From Eledone cirrhosa (taxonomy: Eukaryota): 64,000 bases of DNA. Shown one piece after another: positions 30,919-34,217 of the stretch; the first letter of the stretch is position 1, and every line of letters begins with the position of its first letter. The notes under the pieces are model-generated. The model was given only the letters and a program-made list of their open reading frames with translations, did no database searches and was not told where the DNA came from. The position numbers and the translations under genes are program-made. The stretch spans positions 36,456,001-36,520,000 of the forward strand of contig OZ024757.1 in the NCBI GenBank assembly GCA_964016885.1, read 5' to 3'.

Positions 30919-31265
30919 TCAGTCTTTGGAAACCTTGTTGGAATAATTTGAAAACATTTGAGCCAAGATGATTGTCAGTTGGTTCCTAAGGCCCTCTATT
31001 TCTTTAGCTAGACCTGCCGCCATGACCTGCTCTATGTATGTACTCAATACTTGCTTGATGAGGATTTCAGAAGTCTTGCCTTTGATGGTTGTACTGTAAA
31101 TGGTAGGAGTAAGAGAAGTTACGTTATCGTAAGGCCAGGCAAACAGAAGCATGGTGGCCATGTGTAGATTGTTTACAGCTCTATATGGTTTTGAGCACTT
31201 GACATTTTCTAGTCCTTGTAGCTTTGGTTTACAACAATAAAGTGGCTTGTAGGGCAGCTCCTCAC
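30919..31265 (-). CDS. PCS: Phytochelatin synthase (glutathione gamma-glutamylcysteinyltransferase), coding exon 4 (terminal)
   Basis: Acceptor taattccag, phase 1: (G)EELPYKPLYCCK...LAKEIEGLRNQLTII...SKD*. The LxxEIxxLRxQL motif resembles the eukaryotic PCS C-terminal domain. Confidence 0.8.
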
Positions 31266-31898
31266 CTGGAATTAGATATACCATATATTACATTTAATAT
31301 AGATATATTTTACAATTACTTACCACTATCATATCCTACATCTAATATATATAAATATAATTTATAAACACTGACCAAGTTGTGAGACCAGCCAGTATCA
31401 TATCCTACATTTAATATGTATGTATGGTCCCGTAACTCCTGATAGAATCTTAGGGATACTGTATTGACATACAGAGTTTCTTGAGCATTTTTTAAGCCTG
31501 GCAGAGCCCATTCTTCTCCAGGCCTGAATACAGCAGATTTCTTTCAGAGAAAGATGGAAAGTGAGAGAGAGGAAACGAGAAAGACATAGAGGAAGGAGGA
31601 ATTGACCCCAGTACTAGACTGGTACTTTTTTTTTATTGACCTCGAAAGGATTTGAACTCAGAAAGCAGAGATCTGGAACAAATACCAAAAAGCATTCTAT
31701 CTGACATTCTAATGACTGTCAATATATATAAATATGGATTGAGGAAGGCGAGGCTGTGTGGTTACTGACAACGAGTGTTAGAAGGTAAGGCGACAAACGA
31801 GATGGACAGTTTCCCTTCGCCGGTCTATATATATACAAAAACTGACCCGTAACATATCTTACATTTAATATATATAAATATATTTTATAAATACTGAC

Positions 31899-32270
31899 CA
31901 TGTTGTGAGACCAATGCATAAAGTTCTGTGCTTTCTAGTTTCTTTAACAGTTGTTCTTTGGCACATCGGTACTTCTCCTTCAATTCACACGGACACTTTT
32001 GGTCAAGAATATGTATATCCAAGGGCCAGTTTTCTTGTTTCAGGTCAGCCAGCAGCTTTATAATGTGACCGACCACTTCTGTGACAGTCACCAGGTTATC
32101 TGTGGACTTTACCGGAGATGTCAAGACAGCATTCCATTTCTGTACAAAAGACGAGGTATCTGCTGGTACTATGGAGTGGATTGCTAGGGTTAGTTGGGAA
32201 GACGCACAGAATAATACGGGGTGGTCACAACTTGCATTCTTACTCATCAGTACATAACCGCGAAGAGATC
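31899..32270 (-). CDS. PCS: Phytochelatin synthase, coding exon 3
   Basis: tttcttgcag|(G)SLRGYVLMSK...LESTELYALVSQH|gtcagt; completes the D..TG..RGY end of the catalytic domain; phases 1/1. Confidence 0.9.
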
Positions 32271-32485
32271 CTGCAAGAAATGGGAGAGAAGAAAAATTTG
32301 AAATTTATAGCTCACCTATGTAGGTTTAGCTAACCTCACATATGGTTACATATCATAGCAGGTTTCTTGGGTGTTTTAATGATAGGAAACCCCATTTTAT
32401 CATTTACACACACATATATAGAAGACTTTGAGAGGTATTGGTATAGGGGTATCTAGAATAGTTTGGGAGAATTGATCTAGGATTA

Positions 32486-32755
32486 ACCCTTTAGCATTTA
32501 AACCGGCCAGAATTCTCTCACTTCTTTCAGTTCAAACCGATTGTAACTGGCCACTTAAACTGATGTTAAGGTATTGTCTTCAAAATAAATAACATCAAAA
32601 TCTCAGATTCGATATTATGTGAGGTAAAGCCTTTACCGTAAAAATACAATAGTGTATATAGAGTAATGTGAATGTTACATGAGATAATTATGTGAGGTAA
32701 AGCCTTTACTGTGAAAATACAATAGTATATATAGAGTAATGTAAATGCTAAAGGG
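32486..32755. mobile_element. piggyBac-type MITE in PCS intron
   Basis: ttaa|ccctttagcattta ... taaatgctaaaggg|ttaa. Confidence 0.85.
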
Positions 32756-32827
32756 TTAAATAGAAAGCTGGTGGGGGGGGGGGGTTAGTCTTGGGGTCAC
32801 TAGAAATAGCTAAAAAAAATAACCAAC

Positions 32828-33050
32828 CTGTAGAAGAGTCCCGTGTGTTCATAGCAGAGAGTAGAGAGGAAAGATGTATCCAATGAGGAGGGTACTTGAA
32901 ACGAGCTGTGTCCATAATGAGGACCAAGTCACGCTCAGGGTGATATCCTGCAATCGGTGAGAAGTGACCATCTCCAGTTTGTTTGAGAATCTTCCGGGAG
33001 TATGTGGCAACAATAAAGGCATCGTCTCGTGTTGTGTAAGACTTGACAAC
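32828..33050 (-). CDS. PCS: Phytochelatin synthase, coding exon 2 (catalytic His and Asp)
   Basis: This frame is absent from the ORF track and was translated by hand: VVKSYTTRDDAFIVATYSRKILKQTGDGHFSPIAGYHPERDLVLIMDTARFKYPPHWIHLSSLLSAMNTRDSST; AG/GT sites, phases 0/1. Confidence 0.96.
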
Positions 33051-33821
33051 CTTTTCAAAGAAAAAAAAAAATTGAAATTTACAGCCAACCTCTATGGAGG
33101 TTTTAGCTGGCCTCCTCTAAGGTCACATCTCATACAAGGTTTCTGGGGGTATTTTAATCATAGAGAGCCCCAGTTCTATCATGTTGTTACAGTCAGAGGC
33201 ATAACTAGGCCTATCAAAAATAGCGCATATGGCAAGCATCTGCTGCACTAGGCCACATGCCTTCACTTTTTAAAGACAAAGAGAAAATCTATATTATAAT
33301 CAAAGAATCAATTATATTGAAGAAGTGTTGAGCAAATTTAGAATATTGAAATTCTTATTTTGGTGAAAAGGCATACATGCCAGCAATCTTTTTTTGGGGG
33401 GGAGAGGGGATTAAATTGACCCCAGTGCATTAATGGGAGATATGAACTCAGAACGTAAAAAACCGTAACTCTATGCCATAAAGACCTCAAATAATGGTTT
33501 CTTATATAGGAACAAGGCCAACAACTTTGGGGAGGGGGAAGTCGATTAAATCGACCCCAGTGTATTACTGGTACTTTATTTTATCGATCCCCGTAAGGAT
33601 GAAAGGCAAAGTTAACCTCGGCGGAATTTGAACTCGGGGCGTAACTCTATTTTGCAAAGCATTATGTCCGACGCTAAAGCTAACCTCGGCAGGATTTGAA
33701 CTCAGAACAAATACCACAATAGCAGTTTAACCGACGCTCTACCGATTCTGTCAACCCATCGTATCGCGAAAGAGATAATTAAAATATGTTTTTTTTTTTT
33801 ATATAGTTTTGTTTTGTTTAC

Positions 33822-34217
33822 CTGTCGGAATGTATCTTCACCTTCGGACTGCGGCCGTACGACTGTGGTGACCAGACAGTTACATTGAGCAATACAATTA
33901 AACTGGTCAAGGCTTATCCCTTTCACCTTAACCACATCGAGCGGGACACAGCATTCCAGCATATTTTCGTGGTACCATCTCCATGGTCCCTTCCATACGA
34001 CTCCGGGGTCTATTTCTAGCGCGTTGAGTATCATAACCAACGTAGAGAGACCGCAATAGGCAGGTTCGTCCTGGGTACGAAACTGAGCGGCCAGTTTAAA
34101 GTAACAGTTCATATGTCCGGATAACAAAGCCTCTTTGAAGATGGTTTTGCCCTCTTCCGAATAGAAGGAGATACAGCTCTCTGGTAACAAACGTTGGAAG
34201 AATTCAACAGTGTTCAT
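33822..34217 (-). CDS. PCS: Phytochelatin synthase, coding exon 1 (catalytic Cys)
   Basis: [12 protein letters not shown]...[55 protein letters not shown] donor. An acceptor at 34278 implies a further upstream (probably UTR) exon. Confidence 0.96.

What the first reader, a model, noticed from the sequence alone, without database searches (positions are those of the whole stretch)
30919..34217. Intact, spliced phytochelatin synthase gene in a probable cephalopod genome
Seen: four exons (33822-34217, 32828-33050, 31899-32270, 30919-31265) join in frame to about 445 aa with Cys55, His161 and Asp179, plus a C-terminal domain carrying CxC and CC motifs. Established: this spacing equals the Arabidopsis PCS1 triad (C56/H162/D180); PCS builds metal-chelating (gamma-Glu-Cys)n-Gly peptides from glutathione; in animals it is patchily distributed (nematodes, flatworms, annelids, some molluscs, echinoderms, tunicates) and not found in vertebrates or insects; cephalopods accumulate very high cadmium in the digestive gland. 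Inference: this is a resident gene, since its introns carry host-type SINEs and MITEs, and it could supply a metallothionein-independent cadmium or arsenic detoxification route. I do not know whether it has been characterised in this lineage.
Basis: partly seen in the sequence, partly recalled or inferred. Interest (0 to 1): 0.8.

Follow-up and report, generated by a model that had tools for sequence, protein, structure and literature searches.

The report
Ordinary octopus phytochelatin synthase gene
This is an intact, intron-containing octopus gene for phytochelatin synthase, an enzyme already annotated in other octopus genomes that likely turns glutathione into metal-binding peptides, and its only real interest is the untested possibility that these peptides hold part of the cadmium that cephalopods store.

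Summary
Observation confirmed. Four minus-strand GT-AG exons join to 445 codons without a stop, with Cys55/His161/Asp179 and Pfam PF05023 far above cut-off. Contigs of one run skip exactly introns 2 and 3 and stop at an acceptor 60 nt above the ATG, so a further 5' exon is likely. The protein is 71-72% identical to the PCS already annotated in Octopus vulgaris, O. sinensis and O. bimaculoides and sits in an octopod clade inside a cephalopod clade: a resident, inherited gene. It is not new: a squid PCS EST was noted in 2013 (PMC3838358) and snails make phytochelatins (PMC6981842). The C-terminal CC motif is not conserved (0 of 13 cephalopod homologues); cephalopods also have metallothioneins. 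What stays open: my searches found no study of phytochelatins in a cephalopod, while octopus liver cadmium was reported mostly on unidentified 2-3 kDa ligands (PMC4101491). The scan's earlier notes hold nothing on this gene. Interest 0.3.

The parts
33822..34217 (-). Coding exon 1 (aa 1-132): ATG, Gln49, catalytic Cys55 (34053-34055), Cys89/90/108/112
34218..34277 (-). 60 nt above the ATG, behind a CAG acceptor at 34278-34280: probable 5' UTR part of the same exon; open and in frame with the ATG
   Evidence: X4 contig 21 covers 33992-34278 and ends at the acceptor's G while an X1 contig runs on to 34427; sequence. The upstream exon itself was not found.
33051..33821 (-). Intron 1 (771 nt, phase 0, GT-AG) with high-copy SINE-like pieces (33498-33706; 33079-33182)
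   Evidence: joint not seen in contigs
32828..33050 (-). Coding exon 2 (aa 133-206): Arg151, His161 (32964-32966), Asp179 (32910-32912), Arg182, Lys184
32271..32827 (-). Intron 2 (557 nt, phase 1)
   Evidence: skipped exactly by X4 contig 18
32483..32759 (.). MITE in intron 2: 18-nt perfect terminal inverted repeats beginning TTAA-CCC (piggyBac-like ends, label recalled); four more copies in the window
31899..32270 (-). Coding exon 3 (aa 207-330): end of catalytic domain and first half of the C-terminal domain, C299-P-C301, C309
31266..31898 (-). Intron 3 (633 nt, phase 1); holds an 85% copy (31304-31390) of the exon 3 end and donor, and a dispersed repeat (31418-31723)
   Evidence: skipped exactly by X4 contig 17
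30919..31265 (-). Coding exon 4 (aa 331-445 + TGA): C341-C342 loop, conserved H365 and W374-P375, terminal helix
30200..30918 (-). 3' UTR, at least 719 nt; end not mapped (poly(A) signals at 29199-29607)
   Evidence: X4 contig 17, which is spliced at intron 3, runs on to 30200; signals

Best explanation
The locus is a spliced octopod gene for a full-length eukaryote-type phytochelatin synthase, which likely polymerises glutathione into metal-binding phytochelatins as an auxiliary buffer beside metallothionein. Shown: gene structure, open frame, catalytic triad, two of three splice joints, placement among octopod PCS. Inferred from studied family members: Cys55, helped by His161 and Asp179, attacks glutathione, releases glycine and forms a gamma-Glu-Cys acyl-enzyme; the dipeptide is passed to a second glutathione (as a metal thiolate) or to a growing PCn; the helical, Cys-bearing C-terminal domain stabilises the enzyme and tunes metal activation. 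The enzyme would be constitutive, likely cytosolic, and switched on by free Cd or As when metallothionein capacity is exceeded.
For: Frame, splice sites, triad. PF05023 160.7 and 106.3 bits. C55, H161, D179, T48, Q49, R151, R182, K184, C89, C90, C108, C112 identical in 13 of 13 cephalopod homologues and in 59-63 of 63 other homologues. Exons 1 and 2 align to the solved Nostoc PCS Alr0975 (E 1.7e-7, 3.9e-15); an AlphaFold model of the O. vulgaris orthologue (mean pLDDT 85) matches it at E 4.5e-15, TM 0.88 of the target. Spliced contigs. Exons 1-2 are 85-86% identical to Octopus, exons 3-4 50-68%, the usual PCS pattern under selection. A profile of the animal C-terminal region hits this protein at E 5e-46 and the Biomphalaria, Lymnaea and nematode proteins too. 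Trees: octopod clade 100/100, cephalopod clade 100/99. Published (passages read): mechanism and triad (PMC9917255); animal PCS active in C. elegans, earthworm and, in yeast, Schistosoma (PMC3838358, PMC3101182); Biomphalaria makes PCs on Cd (PMC6981842).
Against: No activity, metabolite or tissue data for any cephalopod were found. A PCS gene does not guarantee PCs: Arion makes only traces of PC2 and PC production was not seen in Schistosoma worms. Cephalopods have MTs, the Nautilus one Cd-selective. The plant-type C-terminal Pfam PF09328 is not hit by exons 3-4 and only weakly by 2 of 76 homologues (best E 0.018). X4 is not on record as RNA, it is one sample, and its tissue is unknown. The fold was predicted for the O. 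vulgaris orthologue, not for this protein.
Confidence: 0.6

Rival explanations
1. The enzyme is real and expressed, but in the animal it mainly trims glutathione S-conjugates or buffers essential metals, and makes little phytochelatin; cadmium goes to metallothionein and larger proteins.
For: Arion has the gene but only trace PC2; PCS also acts in GSH-conjugate catabolism (PMC6981842). Schistosoma PCS is active in yeast but PCs were not seen in worms (PMC3838358). Cephalopod MTs exist, Nautilus MT is Cd-selective. [quoted passage not shown]
Against: The protein keeps the full C-terminal domain, which in Schistosoma PCS is needed for Cd tolerance. MT induction in cephalopods tracks Cd poorly.
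Confidence: 0.22
2. Phytochelatins are a main cadmium ligand of the octopus digestive gland, and much of what was measured as 'metallothionein-like protein' is phytochelatin.
For: In Cd-fed Octopus most cytosolic liver Cd eluted at 2-3 kDa, below MT size; the authors assumed cleaved MT (PMC4101491). Cd is mostly cytosolic and MT induction inconsistent (PMC5397501; the word phytochelatin occurs 0 times there). Thiol assays can count PCs as MT-like protein (PMC6981842). PC-Cd complexes elute at a few kDa (recalled).
Against: The 2-3 kDa peak was also Cu-rich and proteolysis was not controlled. PCs bind Cd more weakly than MT.
Confidence: 0.16
3. The gene is a pseudogene, a contaminant contig or a horizontally acquired copy.
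For: The branch to this protein (0.28) is longer than those of the three Octopus species; animal PCS is patchy.
Against: Open frame, canonical introns, spliced contigs, host repeats shared with the rest of the window, single-copy-like depth on exons in X1/X2, placement with octopods.
Confidence: 0.02

Closest known systems
Octopus PCS orthologues: O. vulgaris CAI9738422.1, O. sinensis XP_029649159.1, O. bimaculoides XP_014771294.1 (annotated glutathione gamma-glutamylcysteinyltransferase, EC 2.3.2.15)
   Same: 71-72% identity over the whole length, same start and the same three break points against this DNA.
   Different: A different octopod; CC instead of CxC in the 341-342 loop. No functional study found for any of them.
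Decapod cephalopod PCS paralogues (Sepia pharaonis CAE1250999.1 and CAE1251003.1; squid EST JK333425.1 cited in PMC3838358)
   Same: Same cephalopod clade; about 50% identity; triad intact.
   Different: Two paralogues there; one carries a 63-89 aa basic, Ser/Thr-rich N-terminal extension lacking here.
Gastropod PCS (Biomphalaria, Lymnaea, Arion) and earthworm/nematode PCS
   Same: 46-47% identity over about 340 columns to the Biomphalaria pfeifferi and Lymnaea proteins; homologous C-terminal region.
   Different: PCs were measured in B. glabrata, Lymnaea, Lumbricus and C. elegans; no such measurement found for cephalopods.
Arabidopsis AtPCS1
   Same: Triad spacing C56/H162/D180 = C55/H161/D179 here; two-domain layout.
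   Different: Plant Phytochelatin_C (PF09328) not detected here.
Nostoc Alr0975 (PDB 2BTW, 2BU3, 6THO)
   Same: Papain-like catalytic domain.
   Different: Lacks the C-terminal domain; about 31% identity.

Membership tests
Phytochelatin synthase (EC 2.3.2.15) | Pfam PF05023 above curated cut-off | tested here: met
   160.7 and 106.3 bits against 24.9
Phytochelatin synthase (EC 2.3.2.15) | Cys-His-Asp triad at PCS spacing | tested here: met
   C55/H161/D179; AtPCS1 56/162/180; aligned to Alr0975
Phytochelatin synthase (EC 2.3.2.15) | Oxyanion Gln and basic substrate-site residues (roles recalled) | tested here: met
   Q49, R151, R182, K184 present; 13 of 13 cephalopod and 61-63 of 63 other homologues
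Phytochelatin synthase (EC 2.3.2.15) | Papain-like fold of the catalytic domain | tested here: met
   Model of the O. vulgaris orthologue matches Alr0975, E 4.5e-15; proxy, not this protein
Eukaryote full-length PCS | Variable Cys-bearing C-terminal domain | tested here: met
   226 aa with 8 Cys; animal C-terminal profile E 5e-46; predicted helical domain, pLDDT 85 for the orthologue
Plant-type PCS | Phytochelatin_C domain PF09328 | tested here: not met
   0 hits on exons 3 and 4; 2 of 76 homologues, best E 0.018. Distant kinship likely: the animal profile hits a PF09328-bearing protein at E 1.6e-9 among 117 searched
Plant-type PCS | Conserved twin-Cys regulatory motifs (PMC7586750) | tested here: not met
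   C341-C342 shared by 0 of 13 cephalopod homologues
Phytochelatin synthase (EC 2.3.2.15) | Metal-activated synthesis of PCn from glutathione | not testable with these tools
   needs enzyme assay or LC-MS
Resident expressed host gene | Spliced transcript and host-congruent phylogeny | tested here: met
   2 of 3 coding introns skipped exactly in X4 contigs; octopod clade 100/100

The most novel reading that the evidence does not exclude
Phytochelatins made by this enzyme are the unidentified 2-3 kDa ligands that hold much of the cytosolic cadmium in the octopus digestive gland, which would explain why metallothionein tracks cadmium poorly in cephalopods; and coleoids split the job between two PCS paralogues, one possibly mitochondrial.
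Probability: 0.25. Interest if true: 0.6.

Novelty: new member of a known kind. Interest (0 to 1): 0.3.

Why it matters
As a gene it is routine. As a lead it is useful: cephalopods store much cadmium in the digestive gland and pass it up the food chain, reviews call the ligands largely unidentified, and the two reviews whose passages I read (PMC5397501, PMC4101491) do not raise phytochelatins for cephalopods. One LC-MS experiment would settle it, and a positive result would change how 'metallothionein-like protein' biomarkers are read in these animals.

Tried and rejected
No RNA holder listed for the stretch; X4 is not labelled, its RNA nature is inferred from exon-exon joins. No whole genome is held, so copy number in the genome and the host's MT genes were not checked; within the window, 0 of 376 tblastn hits of 156 PCS proteins lie outside the four exons, so there is no tandem paralogue and no match to the decapod N-terminal extension at E<0.01. 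The upstream exon was not traced with reads; a CpG-rich island at 43.3-44.9 kb is only a candidate. Fold search of the C-terminal domain alone: no match at E<=0.001 among PDB chains by Foldseek; the wider VIA search never ran. A sequence search with the C-terminal region alone returned 1 hit of 457 candidates, too insensitive to use. ARAGORN found 0 tRNA genes; the Rfam miRNA matches in 28-48 kb are all below gathering score and lie on TA-rich repeats. In the 60-row quick tree Rhopilema falls among lophotrochozoans and 22 of 57 inner branches are open, so deep branching is not used; no land-plant or bacterial PCS was in either tree. Literature searches with mixed cephalopod terms were swamped by papers lacking the key word and are uninformative. 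Supplements of PMC12607849 and PMC10466719 held almost no text (393 and 2,235 characters); those of PMC6635378 (323,252 characters) had 0 PCS mentions. The earlier-findings index had nothing relevant. Horizontal transfer, contamination and pseudogene were considered and rejected.

Full report
Observation. All three coding introns are GT-AG (phases 0, 1, 1), and the joined 1338 nt read as 445 residues plus TGA with no internal stop; residues 55, 161 and 179 are Cys, His and Asp. Exon 1 and exon 2 each hit Pfam PF05023 far above its cut-off (160.7 and 106.3 bits against 24.9); exons 3 and 4 hit nothing significant. This is far beyond chance.

Splicing. No run on record as RNA holds the stretch, but the run with a 0.34 word share, close to the exon fraction, behaves like RNA. 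Its contig 17 joins 31897 to 31263, skipping 633 nt, and contig 18 joins 32827 to 32269, skipping 557 nt; both equal the predicted introns, slid by shared G/GT letters. Contigs of X1 and X2 run unbroken through the same borders. The intron 1 joint was not among the listed pieces; it rests on GT-AG, frame and homology. X4 contig 21 ends at 34278, the G of a CAG acceptor 60 nt above the ATG, so a further 5' exon is likely; I could not trace it. Contig 17 also runs at least 719 nt beyond the stop. This is one sample of unknown tissue, and contigs say nothing on level.

Identity and origin. The best matches are proteins already annotated as glutathione gamma-glutamylcysteinyltransferase in Octopus vulgaris (71.5%), O. 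sinensis and O. bimaculoides (70.9%), then Argonauta (64%) and decapod proteins (about 50%). A 24-row tree puts the protein beside the three Octopus species (92/80), in an octopod clade with Argonauta (100/100), inside a cephalopod clade (100/99); the 60-row quick tree agrees. The host is thus an octopod other than those three (inference). Introns carry host repeats: a MITE with 18-nt perfect inverted ends in intron 2 and four more copies in the window, SINE-like pieces in intron 1 with about nine other matches, and a family with a tRNA-like head; summed contig depth on these intron bins is thousands of times that on the exons. No second PCS lies in the window (0 of 376 hits outside the exons).

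Anatomy. Catalytic and substrate-site residues (T48, Q49, C55, R151, H161, D179, R182, K184) and the N-domain cysteines (C89, C90, C108, C112) are identical in 13 of 13 cephalopod homologues and in 59-63 of 63 other homologues (roles of the non-triad residues recalled). The triad spacing equals AtPCS1 Cys-56/His-162/Asp-180 (PMC9917255, passages). A model of the O. vulgaris orthologue (mean pLDDT 85) matches the Nostoc PCS structures (E 4.5e-15). The C-terminal 226 residues hold 8 Cys. C299 is kept in 13 of 13 cephalopod homologues, C301 in 10 of 13, C309 in 12 of 13; the CC at 341-342 in 0 of 13, and the matching loop is low-confidence in the model. PF09328 is not hit, but a profile of the animal C-terminal region finds this protein (E 5e-46), snail and nematode PCS, and weakly a PF09328-bearing protein (E 1.6e-9). 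The domain alone is predicted as a confident helical bundle (pLDDT 85) with no Foldseek match in the PDB; the sequence searches of the PDB returned only the cyanobacterial PCS.

Mechanism. By family knowledge (PMC9917255, PMC3101182, PMC7586750; passages) Cys55 would release glycine from glutathione, carry gamma-Glu-Cys as an acyl-enzyme and pass it to a second glutathione or PCn in a metal-dependent step, with the C-terminal domain giving stability and metal tuning. All of this is inferred here. For the animal, the best guide is the snail study (PMC6981842, passages): PCS genes were found in all gastropod transcriptomes screened; Biomphalaria, with a non-selective MT, makes PCs on Cd, while Arion, with a Cd-selective MT, makes only traces. 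Cephalopods have MT genes and the Nautilus MT is Cd-selective (PMC9781358, passages), which favours an auxiliary role. Against that, MT induction in cephalopod digestive gland tracks Cd poorly and Cd is mostly cytosolic (PMC5397501, passages), and in Cd-fed Octopus most cytosolic liver Cd eluted at 2-3 kDa, which the authors put down to MT cleavage (PMC4101491, passages). I give 0.6 to auxiliary buffering, 0.22 to a mainly non-PC role, 0.16 to PCs as a main ligand and 0.02 to artefact.

Novelty. The family, its animal distribution and its presence in cephalopods are known: a squid EST is cited in Liebeke et al. 2013 (PMC3838358, passages), and databases annotate the orthologues. I found no study of cephalopod phytochelatins: 'phytochelatin synthase' + 'cephalopod' gave 4 papers and 'phytochelatin' + 'octopus' 8 (listings seen, one read in passages; none is such a study by title and abstract start); (30 of 62 listed) the cephalopod metal-exposure papers show 0 occurrences of the word, as does PMC4326271. 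The library lacks most subscription journals, and two of three supplement sets I searched were nearly empty, so absence is not proven. The scan's earlier notes hold nothing on this.

Verdict. A correct sighting of an ordinary, inherited octopod PCS: new member of a known kind. Interest 0.3, carried by one cheap, testable question, whether phytochelatins are the small cadmium ligands of the octopus digestive gland (probability about 0.25, interest 0.6 if true).

Noticed in passing
Proteins P0124/P0138 (Sepia pharaonis CAE1250999.1, CAE1251003.1) and clusters P0002, P0003, P0005, P0007: Decapods carry two PCS paralogues; the octopod clade groups with paralogue B at 88/81 (not starred), hinting at a duplication before the octopod-decapod split with loss of A in octopods. 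Paralogue B has a 63-89 aa basic, acid-poor N-terminal extension like a mitochondrial leader, as described for Schistosoma PCS.
   Followed up: partly
window 31304-31390: 85% copy of the exon 3 end and its donor inside intron 3, a possible decoy or alternative donor; the X4 contig uses the true donor.
   Followed up: partly
window 34218-34280: Splice acceptor 60 nt above the ATG with 20 open in-frame codons; four O. bimaculoides RefSeq accessions share one protein, which suggests alternative 5' UTR exons.
   Followed up: partly
window 43300-44900: CpG-rich, promoter-like island with CGGAAG motifs facing both ways and a GTGAG donor near 44153 on the minus strand: candidate first exon of this gene.
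   Followed up: no
window 57-758 (-), 62263-63999 (-), 2245-3309 (+): LINE reverse-transcriptase ORF pieces (recognised from motifs, not searched).
   Followed up: no
window 48811-49398 (-): 196-aa fragment resembling a Helitron/Pif1 helicase (recognised from motifs, not searched).
   Followed up: no
window 19358-19705 (-): 116-aa acidic/basic open stretch that may be an exon of a neighbouring gene.
   Followed up: no
window 45153-45210: tRNA-like SINE head above the Rfam gathering score, with further copies near 18.6, 21.7 and 5.9 kb.
   Followed up: partly
C-terminal domain model mf19e1a1d471d: The animal PCS C-terminal region folds confidently as a helical domain with no Foldseek match in the PDB and no good Pfam model.
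   Followed up: partly
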